Virus record (IMG/VR): IMGVR_UViG_3300009151_000076
Coordinates: 1-62,494 of that record
Direction: 5' to 3' (one strand)
DNA from: a virus
Lineage: Duplodnaviria; Caudoviricetes
Length of the DNA stretch: 62,494 nt
Program-made: the position numbers and the translations under genes
Notes under the pieces: model-generated
What the model was told of the DNA's origin: nothing
The model's database searches: none
What the model saw: only the letters and a program-made list of their open reading frames with translations
In this document: piece after piece, positions 1 to 7,686 of the stretch
Layout of the letters: every line of letters begins with the position of its first letter
Position numbering within the stretch: position 1 is the stretch's first letter

Positions 1-162
1 CATGATTATGAACATCCAGATCAAACTTTTCATAAACTTTCATCATTTAGAGAACCATCAGGTTCTTATGATATGAATAAACCAAGAGAACAATTGGGTG
101 GTAAAACATTAAATCATTATTTTGTGAAGCCTGATGGAACACATAATTTTAATCAATCGTAA
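1..162 (+). CDS. 3' end of a hypothetical protein (5'-truncated by window)
   Basis: Frame +1 is open from base 1 (HDYEHPDQTFHKLSSFREPSGSYDMNKPREQLGGKTLNHYFVKPDGTHNFNQS) to TAA at 160-162. It converges on the minus-strand RNA region. Confidence 0.5.
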   Translation, partial: HDYEHPDQTFHKLSSFREPSGSYDMNKPREQLGGKTLNHYFVKPDGTHNFNQS

Positions 163-171
163 GATATAAAT

Positions 172-271
172 TGGTGATAGTTTTTCTTGTGTCAGGAAAA
201 CTACCAAACCCCGCATACGCAGCCCATCCCACTTTTCGCGTATGGCGGAGGCAGCTATCTGTGGGTCTGCC
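172..271 (-). ncRNA. Structured RNA, copy 1 (pseudoknotted, 3'-terminal CCA)
   Basis: Minus strand: GGCAG..CTGCC stem, CCGC-CATACGC..GCGTATG-CGG stem, CCCAC/GTGGG loop-loop complementarity, then a GGTAGTTTT..AAAACTATC hairpin followed by ACCA. A close copy at 597-704 shows compensatory changes. Confidence 0.75.
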
Positions 272-552
272 TATTTGGTCAGCGTGGATGGATTTGAGCT
301 TGGAGGATTAAAATAATTTTTAATTGCATTAGCAGCTTGTTTTCCATATTTAGCACCATAAATGGCCCCTGCACCAGTAGCTAATGGCTCAGTCACAGGA
401 GCGGCTGGTCCACCTAGTGAACCTACAGCAGCACCTAAAGCAGCACCTGCAGCCCCACCCACTACTTTACCGGCTGTTGTGACGACATCATCGTCATCAT
501 CATCTTCATCAACTATTTTTTTTGTTTTAGCAAATTGTTTAAAACTTTTCAT
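271..552 (-). CDS. Small late protein with MKSFKQF N-terminus, acidic tract and glycine zipper; candidate internal head protein
   Basis: GGAG RBS before ATG at 552 and TATAAATA late promoter at 574-581. GxxxG repeats (GKVVGGAAGAALGAAVGSLGG). The N-terminus resembles the capsid-targeting leader of T4 internal proteins. Confidence 0.6.
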   Translation of the reverse strand: MKSFKQFAKTKKIVDEDDDDDDVVTTAGKVVGGAAGAALGAAVGSLGGPAAPVTEPLATGAGAIYGAKYGKQAANAIKNYFNPPSSNPSTLTK

Positions 553-573
553 GTTGATCTCCATGTTTCAGTT

Positions 574-581
574 TATTTATA
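574..581 (-). promoter_or_regulatory. T4-type late promoter TATAAATA
   Basis: Exact gp55 consensus upstream of ORF 271-552. Confidence 0.7.
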
Positions 582-596
582 AAACTAAAACTTGAT

Positions 597-704
597 TAGT
601 GATAGTTTTTCTTGTGTCAGGAAAACTACCAAACCCCGCAGCGGCAGCCCATCCCACGTTTCGCCCTGGCGGTGGCGGGTACAATTTCCACTAGTGGGCC
701 CGCC
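597..704 (-). ncRNA. Structured RNA, copy 2 (imperfect direct repeat of 172-271)
   Basis: Shares GTGGGATGGGCTGC and GCGGGGTTTGGTAGTTTTCCTGACACAAGAAAAACTATCAC with copy 1. Stems GGCGGG..CCCGCC and CAGGGC..GCCGCTG replace the copy 1 stems. Ends in CTA rather than CCA. Confidence 0.75.
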
Positions 705-716
705 ATATGTATTTAT

Positions 717-792
717 TGGTCCGGGCGGTAGGATTCAAACCTGCGACAAAGAGATTAAGAGTCTCCTGCTCTACCAACTGAGCTAAGTGTCC
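717..792 (-). tRNA. tRNA-Lys(CTT)-like, chimeric or pseudo (acceptor stem does not pair)
   Basis: 76 nt: D arm GCTC-AGTTGGTA-GAGC, anticodon arm GGAGA-CTCTTAA-TCTCT, T loop TTTGAAT, encoded CCA. The 5' GGACACT cannot pair with the 3' CGCCCGG. Confidence 0.65.
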
Positions 793-793
793 A

Positions 794-1150
794 TTATAGT
801 AAATTCTGAACTAGTACCATAAAACTTATCCAAGCCCATAAAGTATTAAATGCTACTAGTGTAGGCAATAACTTTTTATTACTTGCCCAAATTAGTGTCA
901 AACTTGTTATTAGTGTAAAGAAATAAAGCCACCATAGTTGGATATTAAAAATCAAACCAGGTACAATGATGATTGCTTTAGTAAACCAACTAGCAAATTC
1001 TACAATGTTATAGTCTGTCCAGTATTCTTTAGTAAACCACATCTTGTAAGAGGATTTAATATTCTCTATACCAACACGTTTATATACTAATATAGTGCAA
1101 ACAAGCCATATAGTAGTTGCAATTAATATCTTATCTAATGTCATTGGCAC
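794..1150 (-). CDS. Small integral membrane protein, hypothetical
   Basis: 118 aa with several hydrophobic, Trp-rich segments. AT-rich, located between two tRNA genes. Confidence 0.7.
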   Translation of the reverse strand: MPMTLDKILIATTIWLVCTILVYKRVGIENIKSSYKMWFTKEYWTDYNIVEFASWFTKAIIIVPGLIFNIQLWWLYFFTLITSLTLIWASNKKLLPTLVAFNTLWAWISFMVLVQNLL

Positions 1151-1160
1151 CTCTATATTT

Positions 1161-1248
1161 TGGTGGGGAGGGTTGGATTCGAACCAACTGCGTATCTATG
1201 TGCCGGATTTACAGTCCGGTGCCCATCCGCCATCTGAGCAGCCACCCC
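1161..1248 (-). tRNA. tRNA-Tyr(GTA)
   Basis: Anticodon arm CCGGA-CTGTAAA-TCCGG, long variable region, T arm GTTGG-TTCGAAT-CCAAC, acceptor GGGGTGG/CCTCCCC (one T.T mismatch), ACCA end. Confidence 0.85.
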
Positions 1249-1299
1249 AAAAATTCACCGTCCAAATTCAAATTATATCTTCAAAGATACTACATAAAA

Positions 1300-1467
1300 T
1301 CGAATTTCGGAGTCGGGTGCTTCCCTTCCTCAGCCATTGATCAGGTTGTATTAGGATGGCAAGATGGCCCTATCATCCATTAGTGCATGCGTCCATGCAC
1401 GGTACCCTGTGTAGTATCCATGAAGAGACAACCGAAGTTGTCTCGTCGTAGTTAGATTGTCAAACAG
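1300..1467 (-). ncRNA. Candidate structured RNA upstream of tRNA-Tyr
   Basis: No credible ORF, and GC-richer than its flanks. Hairpins GAGACAAC-TTCG-GTTGTCTC, GTGCATG-GACG-CATGCAC and GGATG..CATCC. It lies directly after a TATAAATA promoter. Confidence 0.5.
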
Positions 1468-1472
1468 CCATT

Positions 1473-1480
1473 TATTTATA
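1473..1480 (-). promoter_or_regulatory. T4-type late promoter TATAAATA
   Basis: Exact consensus pointing into the RNA/tRNA cluster. Confidence 0.65.
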
Positions 1481-1487
1481 TTAGAAT

Positions 1488-1661
1488 TCAGAGAATGTCT
1501 ACAACACGACCATTTTGATCTACTGCACGAATACGATATTCTGGAAAGTTACGCTGCAGTGATTGCATCTCAGATAGAATACGCTGAGAGTTATTCTCAG
1601 TGGTGTGATAAGTACGCCACACACCAGATTTGTCTTGAGCTTGAATGTCTACCGAGTTCAT
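1488..1661 (-). CDS. Hypothetical protein
   Basis: GGAG RBS before ATG at 1661; follows the upstream ORF directly. Confidence 0.65.
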   Translation of the reverse strand: MNSVDIQAQDKSGVWRTYHTTENNSQRILSEMQSLQRNFPEYRIRAVDQNGRVVDIL

Positions 1662-6012: not shown

Positions 6013-6512
6013 TATTTAGTCTCCTTGTCATGTACATGCAATTGTATAATAGCATAGTGAATCACTTTCATTAGATCTTTTCTCCAGTCGGCAGGAGAAC
6101 CCTTCTTACCATAACGCTGGGCATACTTCATGACGTTGCCCATACAGAAGCCTGTACCGTGGCCAGAATCAATAATAAACTCTGTGGCTTGAAACTTATT
6201 CTGCGAGTAATGCTCGCCGTACGTATTATTAATATACGCTAAAACCTCGCTGATGTACATACTTTCATTGTACTTATATTCAATATTTTTAGATGCGTCT
6301 ACCTTTGTTATATTAAAAGCCATGTTGATATCTGTCTCTACGTATCCTTCTTTAGGTCCAGTAGAATACATATTAGGCCCTGTAGGTCCGTTAGCACCTA
6401 CAGATCCAAACATCGGCATGTCAAGCGTATTAATATCATCGGCCGTTAGCGCACCTATAGCACCATCTTTAAAATAATCCATCCCACCCTCCATATTAAA
6501 AGAAACTCTCAA
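6012..6512 (-). CDS. DUF3310 / T7 gp1.7-like protein (putative nucleotide kinase) with N-terminal extension
   Basis: HY..Q..EFI..GFCMGNVMKYAQRYGKK..DLMKVIHY motif. Confidence 0.7.
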   Translation of the reverse strand: MRVSFNMEGGMDYFKDGAIGALTADDINTLDMPMFGSVGANGPTGPNMYSTGPKEGYVETDINMAFNITKVDASKNIEYKYNESMYISEVLAYINNTYGEHYSQNKFQATEFIIDSGHGTGFCMGNVMKYAQRYGKKGSPADWRKDLMKVIHYAIIQLHVHDKETK

Positions 6513-7686
6513 GACTCATGGCTGCTGAATTATACTCGTGCGTCTGAGATAAATTACTCTGGTATATGTAGTCAGTATCGAGCTCTTCTAGCTCGCCGTT
6601 AATCCACTTTTTAATCTCGCCGGCCATATCGGCCGCCGTTTGGACTGGTACATTCTGACATATATGATTGACGTTCTTCTTAGGATCTATAAGTTCAAAG
6701 TTATCAGGCAGTCCCATGATCGTCATGGCCTCTCTATAGTTTATGTATCTGTCTTCTATAGGATGTGTTAAACTCGTAGGGTAGTGACCTACAAAAGCTC
6801 CAATATAATCTTTAGGAACAATGGTCCCCCTCCTCATAATAGATAAACCTCTTGATAGCTTATCGGCTTTGTACTCGCACTTCTTAACTTGTTTTTCAAA
6901 TCCATTGATCTTCATCCACTCTGCCACTTCTAGATAGTTGATACCGCGCTTTTCAATATAGGCTTGCGTATCATTATCGTGTGTTCCCGAGGCTTTCATC
7001 AAAGCAGCAAACTCTCTATGAGTTAGACCACCGTGAATATGTTCAAGCACGTACTTATAATATGGATCTTGAGATGGTATTTTAGAGTTAATGGTCTCTC
7101 TCTGAGTATTACCTAGGGCACCTAAGATTACATCTTCGATCTTTTTATGTGGGCGATTGAAGTACGATAGCAGAGGTGTTTTATCGCCTTTCCAGAAGAA
7201 GTAAAAAGATCTATTACGCACCTGTGGACCACCATGAAGTATGGTCTTGGTACGATACACGGTCATGGTGTACCCATTTTCTTTCCCGATCTGTCGCAGC
7301 TGATTACGAACTTTATCACCGATCTTACCAGCAAATCCTGGAGCGTTCTCACCCCAAAGTACTTTGGGCTGCATCTCTTCGAGCACAAATTTTGTGGTAT
7401 CAATCATCCACTTGTTATTCTGATTGTCGTCGCCGTATCCGTGTGACAGCTGAGACAGCCCAGCACATGGACAAACGGATCCAATAACATCGACTTTATG
7501 ATCTGGTCTATGACCTTTGTCGAGGACATAGTATGGAACTTCATTGTTGTAGTGATTAACGATGTGCTGATCATTCTGCCAAAAAGCTTCATAGGACATC
7601 AGGTAGTCTGGTCTAGATCCAAAAGCTTGCTCTTGACCGATCGTCTCGCCTCCAATTAAAGGTACGATAGTTGCGTGTTTAATCAT
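6496..7686 (-). CDS. Atypical DNA cytosine-C5 methyltransferase-like protein
   Basis: Catalytic PC (CPCAGLS), motif VI ENAPG, motif VIII PQVRNR, motif IX REAMTIMGLPD and motif X QNVP. Motif I is divergent (VPLIGG instead of FxGxGG). Confidence 0.8.
   Translation of the reverse strand: MIKHATIVPLIGGETIGQEQAFGSRPDYLMSYEAFWQNDQHIVNHYNNEVPYYVLDKGHRPDHKVDVIGSVCPCAGLSQLSHGYGDDNQNNKWMIDTTKFVLEEMQPKVLWGENAPGFAGKIGDKVRNQLRQIGKENGYTMTVYRTKTILHGGPQVRNRSFYFFWKGDKTPLLSYFNRPHKKIEDVILGALGNTQRETINSKIPSQDPYYKYVLEHIHGGLTHREFAALMKASGTHDNDTQAYIEKRGINYLEVAEWMKINGFEKQVKKCEYKADKLSRGLSIMRRGTIVPKDYIGAFVGHYPTSLTHPIEDRYINYREAMTIMGLPDNFELIDPKKNVNHICQNVPVQTAADMAGEIKKWINGELEELDTDYIYQSNLSQTHEYNSAAMSLESFF

What the first reader, a model, noticed from the sequence alone, without database searches (positions are those of the whole stretch)
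172..704. Duplicated ~100-nt pseudoknotted RNA with covariation and a tRNA-like minihelix-CCA end
Seen: two copies (172-271, 597-704) whose differences preserve pairing. Stem 1 is GGCAG/CTGCC versus GGCGGG/CCCGCC; stem 2 is CATACGC/GCGTATG versus CAGGGC/GCCGCTG. CCCAC (loop 1) and GTGGG (loop 2) are invariant and complementary. The invariant 3' hairpin is about 12 bp (acceptor plus T stem length) and is followed by ACCA in copy 1. Its CCTG could alternatively pair with the upstream CGGG. The RNA sits in the tRNA cluster. Inference: a stable tRNA-mimic or decoy RNA, analogous to T4 RNA C/D. The 3' part loosely recalls the cyanophage manA motif, but I cannot confirm this.
Basis: partly seen in the sequence, partly recalled or inferred. 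Interest (0 to 1): 0.8.

Follow-up and report, generated by a model that had tools for sequence, protein, structure and literature searches.

The report
New pseudoknotted small RNA family
The two repeats are copies of a roughly 100-base folded RNA, found in no RNA catalogue searched, that sits among transfer-RNA genes of freshwater phages and also occurs as a stand-alone gene in some bacteria and plasmids; what it does is still unknown.

Summary
Both copies lie on the minus strand (272→175 and 704→600) and share one fold: hairpins P1 and P2 whose loops pair in a 5-bp pseudoknot, a GGUU(U) linker, and hairpin P3 with the loop CCYGACACA. Pattern scans found the same RNA in about 95 IMG/VR phage contigs and 43 bacterial genome contigs, and blastn found it on 5 plasmids. 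On 95 distinct sequences, 96.3% of cells are paired and 22 of 30 pairs change on both sides, including 3 of 5 pseudoknot pairs. The 18 strongest mutual-information column pairs are all proposed pairs. No Rfam 15 family matches, manA and the HDV-like, pistol and tRNA families included.

The tRNA-like minihelix-CCA reading fails. CCA follows P3 in 4 of 63 phage contexts and no sequence has a T-loop. T4 RNA C and D are not homologues.

In phages the RNA follows a tRNA, a Ro60-like gene, a phosphoesterase gene or a tmRNA. In bacteria a −10 box lies 4–7 nt before P1.

My best reading is a discrete trans-acting RNA of the tRNA and RNA-repair sphere, possibly Y-RNA-like. The mechanism is inferred, not shown.

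The parts
175..272 (-). Copy 1 of the RNA, 98 nt from P1 to P3
   Evidence: R1 112.3 bits; sequence and sub-parts verified; identical element in L009 and L021
267..272 (-). Copy 1, P1 5' strand AGGCAG; it pairs with 249-254 (CTGCCT)
   Evidence: helix 1: 4 of 6 pairs change on both sides
261..265 (-). Copy 1, pseudoknot 5' strand CCCAC in the P1 loop; it pairs with 228-232 (GTGGG) in the P2 loop
   Evidence: 3 of 5 pairs change on both sides; the first pair also covaries on plasmids
211..248 (-). Copy 1, P2 hairpin: CCG, a bulged C and 7 bp, closing the 17-nt loop GAAAAGTGGGATGGGCT (221-237)
   Evidence: helix 3: 6 of 10 pairs change on both sides
206..210 (-). Copy 1, linker GGTTT between P2 and P3
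   Evidence: GGT invariant, though partly imposed by the search patterns
176..205 (-). Copy 1, P3 hairpin with the conserved loop CCTGACACAAGA (185-196)
   Evidence: (helix 4: 9 of 9 pairs change on both sides)
172..175 (-). ACCA after P3 of copy 1; not a family feature
   Evidence: CCA in 4 of 63 contexts
600..704 (-). Copy 2 of the RNA, 105 nt. P1 is 699-704 with 674-679. The pseudoknot is 694-698 with 653-657. There is a 14-nt insert at 680-693. P2 is 663-672 with 636-645. P3 is 601-630.
   Evidence: R1 105.1 bits; coordinates verified
717..792 (-). Chimeric tRNA-Lys(CUU)-like gene 12 nt upstream of copy 2. Its 5' two-thirds match the tRNA-Lys(CUU) of L027. From the T-loop onward it is foreign, and the acceptor stem cannot pair.
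   Evidence: tRNA model matches positions 8-63 only; ARAGORN misses it; alignment
276..297 (-). Remnant of a tRNA-Pro 3' end (T-loop to CCA) just upstream of copy 1. It now encodes the C-terminus of the 97-aa ORF.
   Evidence: Same 22 bases precede the element after tRNA-Pro in L030
271..564 (-). 97-aa Gly/Ala-rich ORF carried between the two copies. Its stop codon overlaps the first bases of P1 of copy 1.
   Evidence: no Pfam family; only weak PHROG matches
1161..1248 (-). tRNA-Tyr(GUA), same strand, upstream in the same presumed transcription unit

Best explanation
Each copy encodes a member of a previously uncatalogued family of structured non-coding RNA, 96-123 nt long.

Fold. Hairpin P1 and hairpin P2 are joined by one nucleotide. 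Five bases of the P1 loop pair with five bases of the P2 loop in a kissing pseudoknot. This leaves GAAA and AUGGGCU unpaired in the P2 loop. A GGUU(U) linker leads to hairpin P3. P3 varies in stem length and presents the near-invariant loop CCYGACACA.

How it is made. In phages the RNA is made as part of tRNA, tmRNA or RNA-repair-gene transcripts. I infer that the nucleases which trim the neighbouring tRNAs cut it free. In bacteria and plasmids it is a gene of its own, with transcription starting at the first base of P1.

How it works. I infer that it acts in trans as a folded RNA. A rigid core would display the invariant unpaired bases to one conserved partner from the tRNA-maintenance or RNA-surveillance machinery. 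My working model is a Y-RNA-like cofactor or decoy for Ro60-like and RNA-end-healing proteins.

The window's duplication. It arose by recombination that moved a module made of a tRNA 3' end plus the RNA.

Shown and inferred. Shown are the fold, the strand, the family, the genomic contexts and the lack of a catalogue match. Inferred are the discrete transcript, the processing, the trans action and the partner. My odds are about 0.9 that it is a real new structured RNA family, about 0.6 that it is an independent trans-acting RNA, and about 0.25-0.3 that it works in a Y-RNA-like or RNA-repair role.
For: Fold and strand:
- 96.3% of cells are paired and 22 of 30 pairs change on both sides. The MAFFT-only alignment gives 96.3% against 80.3% in shuffles.
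- The 18 top mutual-information pairs are all proposed pairs.
- GU/UG pairs number 45 against 17 AC/CA, which fixes the strand.
- On plasmids the first pseudoknot pair covaries too: UCCAC/GUGGA and UCUGC/GCAGA.

Independent gene in bacteria:
- 28 of 43 bacterial loci have a TANNNT box ending 4-7 nt before P1. Hairpin-plus-T-run terminators follow P3 in L104, L110 and L122.
- There is one copy per genome in 5 of 5 genomes.
- Neighbours are heterogeneous. The commonest Pfam family occurs in 5 of 98 neighbour proteins.

Punctuated by tRNAs in phages (63 unique contexts):
- A tRNA ends at most 15 nt upstream in 13.
- A tRNA starts at most 15 nt downstream in 6. L056 and L067 are flanked on both sides.
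- At least one same-strand tRNA lies within 3 kb in 52.

RNA-repair sphere:
- A Ro60-like gene ends directly upstream in 23 of 66 unique contexts, and a metallophosphoesterase gene in 6 of 66.
- The Ro60-like gene carries DUF2828 and DUF7788 and matches PHROG 850, 'RNA-binding protein'. 25 of its 30 nearest Atlas clusters are TROVE/vWA_Ro60.
- A two-piece tmRNA lies about 100-640 nt upstream in 4 loci.
- Bacterial Y RNAs are encoded beside Ro60 genes on the same strand (PMC4201824, passages read).

Other:
- P3 stem length varies while its loop is fixed. This fits a presenting arm.
- No promoter-like or terminator-like site lies beside either window copy, so both must be read through from upstream.
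- Contigs from 3 RNA libraries of 3 studies cover the element. This is weak evidence.
Against: - No transcript ends, abundance or partner have been measured. The metatranscriptome contigs are of low depth and may contain DNA.
- The Ro60 link is not general. TROVE was absent from all 5 bacterial carriers and from the window plus 4 large phage contigs. DUF2828 was absent from the same 5 bacterial carriers, from the window and from 5 large phage contigs. The phage contigs searched include one rated 98% complete.
- The 23 Ro60-adjacent contexts come from three related sublineages whose proteins are 62-68% identical. They are not 23 independent events.
- The features that define Y RNAs are missing. 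GNCGAAN0-1G occurs in 1 of 95 sequences and a T-loop in 0 of 95.
- Near-identity of about 25 unpaired bases across phyla is more typical of ribozymes and ligand aptamers than of protein-binding RNAs. This rests on my own knowledge.
- Part of that invariance was imposed by my search patterns.
Confidence: 0.45

Rival explanations
1. It is a ribozyme, self-cleaving or otherwise catalytic. Placed directly 3' of phage tRNAs, it would help to mature their 3' ends, as the HDV-like theta ribozymes of gut phages do.
For: - It has a compact pseudoknotted core with many invariant unpaired bases.
- It is patchily spread over phages, plasmids and distant bacteria.
- It starts 3-8 nt after a tRNA in 13 of 63 contexts. 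These include tRNAs with the amber-suppressor anticodon CUA in L038 and L039.
- Theta ribozymes lie within 5 nt of tRNAs, and about 20% of them lie next to suppressor tRNAs (PMC10879173, passages read).
- The topology, with the P1 loop pairing to a strand enclosed by P2, resembles pistol as I recall it.
Against: - No HDV-like, pistol, hatchet, twister or hammerhead model matches even at E ≤ 10.
- The fold is not a nested double pseudoknot, and copy 1 has only 6 nt where HDV-like ribozymes need P3 and L3.
- In bacteria the -10 box puts the transcript start at P1, so there is nothing upstream to cut off.
- The first P1 pair is variable.
- 50 of 63 phage copies are not directly behind a tRNA.
Confidence: 0.15
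2. It is a ligand-sensing aptamer. It would act as an orphan riboswitch-like RNA in trans, or would change the exposure of the P3 loop when it binds a small molecule or ion.
For: - Core conservation across phyla, together with a pseudokn

ot, resembles riboswitch aptamers.
- CCYG of the P3 loop could pair with CGGG as an alternative to the CCG/CGG base of P2.
- Some bacterial copies precede transporter genes on the same strand: a Na+/H+ exchanger in L121 and L145, and an MFS transporter in L124.
Against: - Downstream genes are heterogeneous.
- Many copies are followed by a promoter, a tRNA or their own terminator.
- No expression platform is conserved.
- The bases of the alternative pairing never vary, so covariation cannot support it.
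Confidence: 0.1
3. It is a base-pairing regulatory small RNA. The P3 loop (A)UCCYGACACA would be the seed, for example against Shine-Dalgarno regions. The pseudoknot domain would serve only as a stabilising 5' structure.
For: - It is a stand-alone gene with a promoter and a terminator.
- It has an exposed, conserved, C-rich loop on a stem of variable length.
- UCCU is complementary to AGGA.
Against: - Seed and scaffold are conserved from cyanophages to Acidobacteria. This is unlike clade-restricted base-pairing sRNAs (my own knowledge).
- The pseudoknot domain carries as many invariant bases as the loop.
- No target search was made.
Confidence: 0.1
4. P3 would be a tRNA-like minihelix that ends in CCA or receives it, making the RNA a tRNA mimic or decoy.
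For: - Copy 1 and three further phage contexts end in A-CCA.
- A purine followed by C follows P3 in many members.
- The RNA sits among tRNAs.
- M. smegmatis YrlA is cut by RNase P and receives CCA (PMC4201824).
Against: - CCA follows P3 in 4 of 63 contexts, while CTA follows in 23 of 63.
- The T-loop occurs in 0 of 95 sequences.
- The P3 loop has 9-15 nt with its own consensus.
- Only 5 to 9 of the 9 modelled P3 pairs form.
- There is no ARAGORN or tRNA-model signal.
Confidence: 0.06
5. It is a passive element: a stable structure that protects transcript ends after tRNA excision. As a repeat, it would also promote recombination that shuffles gene cassettes, like the PeSL cassettes of T4-type phages.
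For: - The window shows such shuffling. Two copies flank a small ORF, each preceded by a tRNA 3' end of different origin.
- The RNA often lies at the 3' end of an ORF.
Against: A mere clamp or recombination repeat needs no invariant unpaired bases, no conserved pseudoknot across four bacterial phyla, and no promoter of its own.
Confidence: 0.08

Closest known systems
T4 stable RNAs C and D (rnaC, rnaD; species 1 and 2)
   Same: Both are small stable RNAs of unknown function, encoded as a tandem pair at the distal end of the tRNA cluster of a T4-type phage, on the tRNA strand.
   Different: There is no sequence or structure similarity. R2 with filters off scores at most 1.5 bits in the T4 region. 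rnaC ends in a tRNA-like T-arm, which this family lacks.
Theta ribozymes (minimal HDV-like ribozymes next to phage tRNAs; PMC10879173)
   Same: Both are small pseudoknotted RNAs immediately 3' of phage tRNAs, including suppressor tRNAs.
   Different: The topology is two kissing hairpins, not a nested double pseudoknot. There is no P3/L3, no Rfam HDV match, and bacterial copies start at the promoter.
Bacterial Y RNAs (YrlA/YrlB) with Ro60/Rsr (PMC4201824)
   Same: Both are small structured RNAs encoded on the same strand right next to a Ro60-type gene. This holds for 23 of 66 phage contexts here, within an RNA-repair and tRNA setting.
   Different: GNCGAAN0-1G occurs in 1 of 95 sequences and there are no T- or D-like arms. 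Carriers without any TROVE or DUF2828 gene exist.
Pistol self-cleaving ribozyme
   Same: In both, a P1 hairpin loop pairs with a strand that lies inside a second helix. This topology is recalled, not taken from a call.
   Different: There is no hairpin and no cleavage-site junction inside P2, and the P1-P2 linker is 1 nt long. No Rfam pistol match appears at E ≤ 10.
manA RNA motif (RF01745) of cyanophages
   Same: Both are pseudoknotted RNAs found in T4-like cyanophages.
   Different: No manA match appears at E ≤ 10 in window 1-1600.

Membership tests
Any Rfam 15 family (4227 models) | Covariance-model score at or above the family's gathering score | tested here: not met
   Nothing at the element in the window, 18 bacterial loci or 10 phage loci. 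At E ≤ 10 the only overlapping match is an opposite-strand AS-traI hit (20.5 bits against a threshold of 99) in the window. Nothing overlaps in L112.
manA motif (RF01745) | Match to the manA covariance model | tested here: not met
   No manA row at E ≤ 10.
HDV-like / theta ribozymes | Nested double pseudoknot, with a P3-L3 hairpin between the 5' strand of P2 and the 3' strand of P1 | tested here: not met
   The 3' strand of the pseudoknot lies inside the P2 loop. Copy 1 has only AGATAG between the pseudoknot strand and the P1 3' strand. The insert there is variable or absent.
HDV-like / theta ribozymes | tRNA within about 5 nt of the 5' cleavage site | tested here: inconclusive
   A tRNA ends 3-8 nt upstream in 13 of 63 unique phage contexts. 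This is not so in the other 50, nor in bacteria.
HDV-like / theta ribozymes | Self-cleavage that depends on a catalytic cytosine in J4/2 | not testable with these tools
   Needs an in vitro cleavage assay.
Pistol ribozyme | Match to the Rfam pistol model, with a hairpin and a G-U cleavage junction inside P2 | tested here: not met
   No match. The P2 loop is 17 unpaired nt.
tRNA-like structure / minihelix with CCA | T-loop consensus (GTTCRANYC) | tested here: not met
   0 of 95 distinct sequences.
tRNA-like structure / minihelix with CCA | Conserved 3' CCA after a discriminator base | tested here: not met
   CCA in 4 of 63 unique phage contexts. In the window, copy 1 has it and copy 2 does not.
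tRNA-like structure / minihelix with CCA | Detected by tRNA finders | tested here: not met
   ARAGORN and the Rfam tRNA model give nothing at 172-272 or 597-704.
Bacterial Y RNA (YrlA type) | Encoded within a few kb of a Ro60 (TROVE) gene on the same strand | tested here: inconclusive
   A Ro60-like DUF2828 gene ends directly upstream in 23 of 66 phage contexts. No TROVE or DUF2828 was found in 5 of 5 bacterial carriers, in the window or in the large phage contigs searched. The Ro60 likeness of DUF2828 rests on PHROG 850 and language-model neighbours, not on a structure.
Bacterial Y RNA (YrlA type) | GNCGAAN0-1G motif and tRNA-like T and D stem-loops | tested here: not met
   The motif occurs in 1 of 95 sequences, and GNCGAA alone in 48 of 95. 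The T-loop occurs in 0 of 95.
T4 rnaC/rnaD | Sequence and structure similarity | tested here: not met
   R2, with filters off, on T4 70.5-72.7 kb: best score 1.5 bits.
Intrinsic terminator | GC-rich hairpin followed by a T run | tested here: not met
   0 terminator-like sites in window 1-1500.

The most novel reading that the evidence does not exclude
This is a new class of functional RNA that travels with phage tRNA, tmRNA and RNA-repair modules and has spread to plasmids and at least four bacterial phyla. It would be either a Ro60-independent analogue of Y RNAs that organises RNA repair or turnover, or a new ribozyme or aptamer fold that acts on tRNA ends. It would add an RNA component to the contest between phage tRNA arrays and host tRNA-targeting defences.
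Probability: 0.3. Interest if true: 0.85.

Novelty: categorically new. Interest (0 to 1): 0.72.

Why it matters
Strongly supported structured RNA families with a conserved pseudoknot core, well over a hundred natural copies and a reach from cyanophages to Acidobacteria are rare. In the past such families have often turned out to be ribozymes, riboswitches or cores of RNA-protein complexes.

This family sits where phages keep their translation-rescue tools: tRNA arrays, tmRNA, Ro60-like proteins and end-healing phosphoesterases. It could therefore reveal an RNA player in the conflict over tRNA cleavage and repair.

It is directly testable, because cultured carriers exist (Caballeronia, Cupriavidus, Sphingobium and Paracoccus plasmids). 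The covariance model built here can annotate it in metagenomes, where it is now invisible.

Caveats: the label 'new' rests on Rfam 15 and six full-text searches. Function is unknown. Later work may show it to be a distant variant of a known kind.

Tried and rejected
- **Folding energy alone.** The z-scores are -1.90 and -0.69 on the RNA strand and -2.64 and -0.83 on the opposite strand. This does not discriminate, so I relied on covariation.
- **blastn against cultured phages.** Copy 1, copy 2 and a bacterial copy gave no true match among 50,697 records. The three hits at E of 1 or more are chance.
- **E. coli.** No match among 20,395 records.
- **Conserved protein neighbour in bacteria.** All-against-all blastp gave only spurious ORFs overlapping the RNA. 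Pfam on 98 neighbour proteins found no family in more than 5 of them.
- **DUF2828 protein structure.** AlphaFold2 on an 8-row alignment gave a mean pLDDT of 47.1. That is too poor, so I made no fold search. Sequence and profile searches of the PDB gave nothing relevant. The word-based protein search returned only close relatives.
- **Stop-codon reassignment beside the CUA-anticodon tRNAs.** ORF cover is already 0.86-0.96 under the standard code and rises no more for TAG than for the other stops. I saw no signal in the DNA held.
- **Extra tertiary pairs.** Beyond the 18 true pairs, mutual information gave only weak signals. Columns 12 and 82 score 0.28 and do not form standard pairs.
- **Metatranscriptomes.** Contigs of 3 RNA libraries and one probable DNA library cover parts of the element at low depth. 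They show neither ends nor strand. Parts without cover mean nothing.
- **Genome sampling with R2.** It matched 3 of 120 genomes of the family of G001 and 1 of 151 of the class of G003, the latter being the centre genome itself. Only 25-32 of thousands of candidates per genome were scored, so these counts are floors.
- **Literature.** Six full-text searches found no description of this RNA. For PMC10690425, PMC9964418, PMC10879173, PMC7824862 and PMC4201824 I read only matched passages, and for the last also section 6. The 8,495 IMG/VR candidates of PMC10690425 and the Y RNA tables of PMC4201824 may bear on novelty, and I could not see them. Burroughs and Aravind 2016 (PMC5062991) is not held. 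What I say about it is recalled.
- **Not used.** Complex prediction, the look-up of encoding contigs, the metagenome-contig scan and the search of protein representatives.
Full report
**What is in the window.** The window is a 62.5-kb IMG/VR virus record rated 37% complete. Its genes resemble those of T4-like cyanophages: clamp loader, sliding clamp and RegA. The two repeats read as RNA on the minus strand, copy 1 at 272→175 and copy 2 at 704→600. From CGGGGTTTGG to CTATCAC the copies are identical.

| Helix | Copy 1 | Copy 2 |
|---|---|---|
| P1 | AGGCAG/CTGCCT | GGCGGG/CCCGCC |
| P2 | CCG-C-CATACGC/GCGTATG-CGG | CCG-C-CAGGGC/GCC-G-CTG-CGG |

CCCAC in the P1 loop faces GTGGG in the P2 loop in both copies. 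ARAGORN finds only tRNA-Tyr at 1248→1161. The Rfam tRNA model adds a partial tRNA at 785→728. No promoter-like or terminator-like site lies next to either copy.

**A family exists.**
- Three pattern scans of IMG/VR, with patterns taken from the conserved stretches, returned 35, 45 and 86 stretches.
- One scan of one genome per prokaryotic species returned 46 stretches.
- A covariance model built from 31 phage sequences (A3, R1) was run over 98 sources. It hit 96 elements at 45.9-129.4 bits: 2 in the window, 50 in 50 phage loci, and 44 in 43 bacterial loci. It hit none of the 4 loci I had judged to be chance pattern matches (L051, L101, L115, L139).
- The bacterial carriers are Alphaproteobacteria (Sphingomonas, Sphingobium, Azospirillum, Acetobacteraceae, Rhizomicrobium, Roseomonas and others), Burkholderiales (Caballeronia, Paraburkholderia, Cupriavidus, Janthinobacterium), Verrucomicrobia and Terriglobia.
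- blastn found the RNA on 5 of 72,556 plasmids, among them the 7.2-kb Paracoccus yeei plasmid pLM20P3.
- blastn found it in none of 50,697 cultured-phage records and none of 20,395 E. coli records.

**The fold is supported by covariation.**
- On a plain MAFFT alignment of 89 sequences, P1, the pseudoknot and P2 are 96.3% paired. Shuffles give 80.3% and slid partners 32-46%.
- On the model-guided alignment (95 distinct rows, 30 pairs, now with P3) 96.3% of cells pair, against 75.9% in shuffles and 37-50% when slid. 22 pairs change on both sides, and the covariation score is 0.523 against 0.162. By helix, the pairs that change on both sides are:

| Helix | Pairs changing on both sides |
|---|---|
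| P1 | 4 of 6 |
| Pseudoknot | 3 of 5 |
| P2 | 6 of 10 |
| P3 | 9 of 9 |

- Pseudoknot variants include CCCAC/GTGGG, CCCGC/GCGGG, CCCGT/ACGGG, CCTGT/ACAGG, CCTGC/GCAGG, CCCGG/CCGGG and CCCAG/CTGGG. On plasmids the first pair changes as well: UCCAC/GUGGA and UCUGC/GCAGA.
- In a structure-blind test, the 18 highest corrected mutual-information column pairs are all pairs of the proposed fold.
- GU/UG pairs outnumber AC/CA pairs 45 to 17, so the window's minus strand is the RNA strand.
- Folding energies alone are not significant.
- One caveat applies. GAAA, GGAUGGGCUG and (C/S)GGGUU were required by my patterns, so their invariance is partly imposed. Most of the scans did not require the P3 loop CCYGACACA, yet it is at least 95% conserved. 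The plasmid copies, found by blastn, keep AUGGGCUG.

**It is not a known family.** Rfam 15 gives nothing at the element at gathering thresholds in the window, in 18 bacterial loci or in 10 phage loci. At E ≤ 10 it gives no same-strand match over the window's first 1600 bases, and nothing overlapping the element in a 181-base bacterial stretch. That excludes manA, the HDV-like families, pistol, hatchet, twister, hammerhead and tRNA as the models define them.

The fold is two kissing hairpins plus a third hairpin, not the nested double pseudoknot of HDV-like and theta ribozymes. Copy 1 has only six bases where those ribozymes need P3 and L3. T4 rnaC and rnaD occupy the same kind of place but do not match the model. 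Six literature searches found no description. Supplementary files that might list it were closed.

**The tRNA-mimic idea fails.**
- CCA follows the terminal purine in 4 of 63 unique phage contexts, while CTA does in 23.
- No sequence has a T-loop (0 of 95).
- P3 forms 5 to 9 of its 9 modelled pairs and has its own 9-15-nt loop.

**Context in phages.** Of 63 unique contexts:
- 52 have a same-strand tRNA within 3 kb, and 27 have three or more.
- In 13 a tRNA ends 3-8 nt before P1. These are Pro in 8, anticodon CUA in 2, Tyr in 2 and Asn in 1.
- In 6 a tRNA starts 3-11 nt after P3.
- L056 and L067 are flanked on both sides.

The enzymes that trim tRNAs would therefore release an RNA of roughly the modelled size. 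This is an inference.

In another large phage clade the RNA starts 2-8 nt after the stop codon of a 470-500-aa protein with DUF2828 and DUF7788. PHROGs calls that protein an RNA-binding protein. Its nearest protein-language-model neighbours outside its own families are TROVE/vWA_Ro60 clusters, 25 of 30 at scores of 0.91-0.93, which is a lead and not a proof. This arrangement holds in 23 of 66 unique contexts, from three sublineages 62-68% identical in that protein.

In 6 of 66 contexts the RNA follows a 200-aa calcineurin-type phosphoesterase. In L015, L022, L031 and L096 an alphaproteobacterial-type two-piece tmRNA lies about 100-640 nt upstream.

**Context in bacteria.**
- 28 of 43 loci have a TANNNT box ending 4-7 nt before the first base of P1. 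Examples are TAAGAT, TATTAT, TATGAT and TATATT. Several have a hairpin with a T run shortly after P3. So the RNA is a gene of its own that starts at P1.
- There is one copy in each of 5 genomes.
- Neighbours are unrelated: an ABC-F protein, TerC, DnaB, Nramp, a Na+/H+ exchanger, NadB, ParA, Cas4-Cas1, Rep and an integrase.
- The RNA is rare: 3 of 120 sampled genomes of one family and 1 of 151 of one class. These are floors, because few candidates were scored.
- None of the 5 carriers has a TROVE or DUF2828 gene. Neither do the window or the large phage contigs searched, including one rated 98% complete.

**How the window's duplication arose.**
- The tRNA-like gene before copy 2 (792→717) equals the tRNA-Lys(CUU) of L027 up to the T-stem and then switches to a foreign 3' end. 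Its acceptor strands, GGACACT and CGCCCGG, cannot pair.
- Before copy 1 lie 22 bases identical to the 3' end of the tRNA-Pro that precedes the element in L030. They now encode the end of a 97-aa ORF whose stop codon overlaps P1.
- So modules made of a tRNA 3' end plus the RNA have recombined and trapped an ORF between two copies. Copy 2 keeps the P2 sequence that is typical of the bacterial members.

**What it most likely does.** The data show a discrete, independently transcribed or tRNA-punctuated RNA. It has a rigid pseudoknot core and three patches of invariant unpaired bases, one of them on an arm of variable length. It keeps company with tRNAs, tmRNA, Ro60-like proteins and a phosphoesterase.

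I therefore favour a trans-acting RNA that binds one conserved partner of the tRNA-maintenance or RNA-surveillance machinery. A Y-RNA-like role is my working model. Bacterial Y RNAs lie beside Ro60 genes on the same strand (PMC4201824), and phage Ro/TROVE proteins are thought to work with a tRNA-like RNA partner (PMC7824862).

Against this, the family lacks the Y RNA motifs and occurs without any Ro60-type gene. A ribozyme, an aptamer, a base-pairing sRNA, a tRNA mimic and a passive structural repeat remain as rivals, with the odds given in their sections. Contigs of three RNA libraries from three studies cover the element, which is only a weak hint of expression.

**Verdict.** It is a new RNA family by every test I could run. 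Its function is open and can be tested in cultured carriers.

Noticed in passing
window 717-792 (-): Chimeric tRNA. The 5' two-thirds match a tRNA-Lys(CUU), and from the T-loop on the sequence comes from another tRNA. The acceptor stem cannot form. ARAGORN misses it and the Rfam tRNA model matches positions 8-63 only. It is probably a dead tRNA left by recombination.
   Followed up: partly
window 271-564 (-): A 97-aa Gly/Ala-rich ORF with an acidic stretch. Its last codons are the remnant of a tRNA-Pro 3' end (276-297), and its stop codon overlaps P1 of copy 1. It has no Pfam family and only weak PHROG matches to glycine-rich parts of tail and lysis proteins.
   Followed up: partly
L038 13432-13505 (-), L039 381-456 (+); also L040, L042, L043, L047, L048: In one phage clade the only tRNA in the locus has the amber-suppressor anticodon CUA (ARAGORN calls it tRNA-Pyl). 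In L038 and L039 it ends 8 nt before the RNA element. Local ORF cover gave no sign that TAG is reassigned.
   Followed up: partly
L022 1634-1988, L031 3972-4351, L096 5568-5927, L015 3224-3997: IMG/VR 'viral' contigs carry an alphaproteobacterial-type two-piece (permuted) tmRNA with tag peptides such as ANDNESIAYALAA. The RNA element lies about 100-640 nt downstream. I did not settle whether these contigs are phages or host fragments.
   Followed up: no
L038 13570-13650 (+): The Rfam freshwater-2 RNA motif (RF02980, 77.8 bits) lies about 150 nt from the element, on the opposite strand.
   Followed up: no
L083 (29 tRNAs in 14.6 kb), L034 (27 in 9.2 kb), L025 (24 in 13.5 kb): These phage contigs have very large tRNA arrays. 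The same clade carries a Ro60-like DUF2828/DUF7788 gene and a calcineurin-type phosphoesterase gene within a few kb of the arrays.
   Followed up: partly
L105 2126-2222 and 4725-4820 (+): Paraburkholderia ferrariae has two copies of the RNA 2.6 kb apart. They lie next to a tRNA (368-441) and a DUF6538 protein of 516 aa, possibly an integrase, which suggests a genomic island. One Acetobacteraceae MAG has three copies on different contigs (L109, L137, L142).
   Followed up: no
L149 (pLM20P3) 6465-6570 (+): On the small mobilisable Paracoccus yeei plasmids the RNA lies between the mobilisation accessory genes and a RelE/ParE-type toxin-antitoxin pair. The records annotate nothing there.
   Followed up: no
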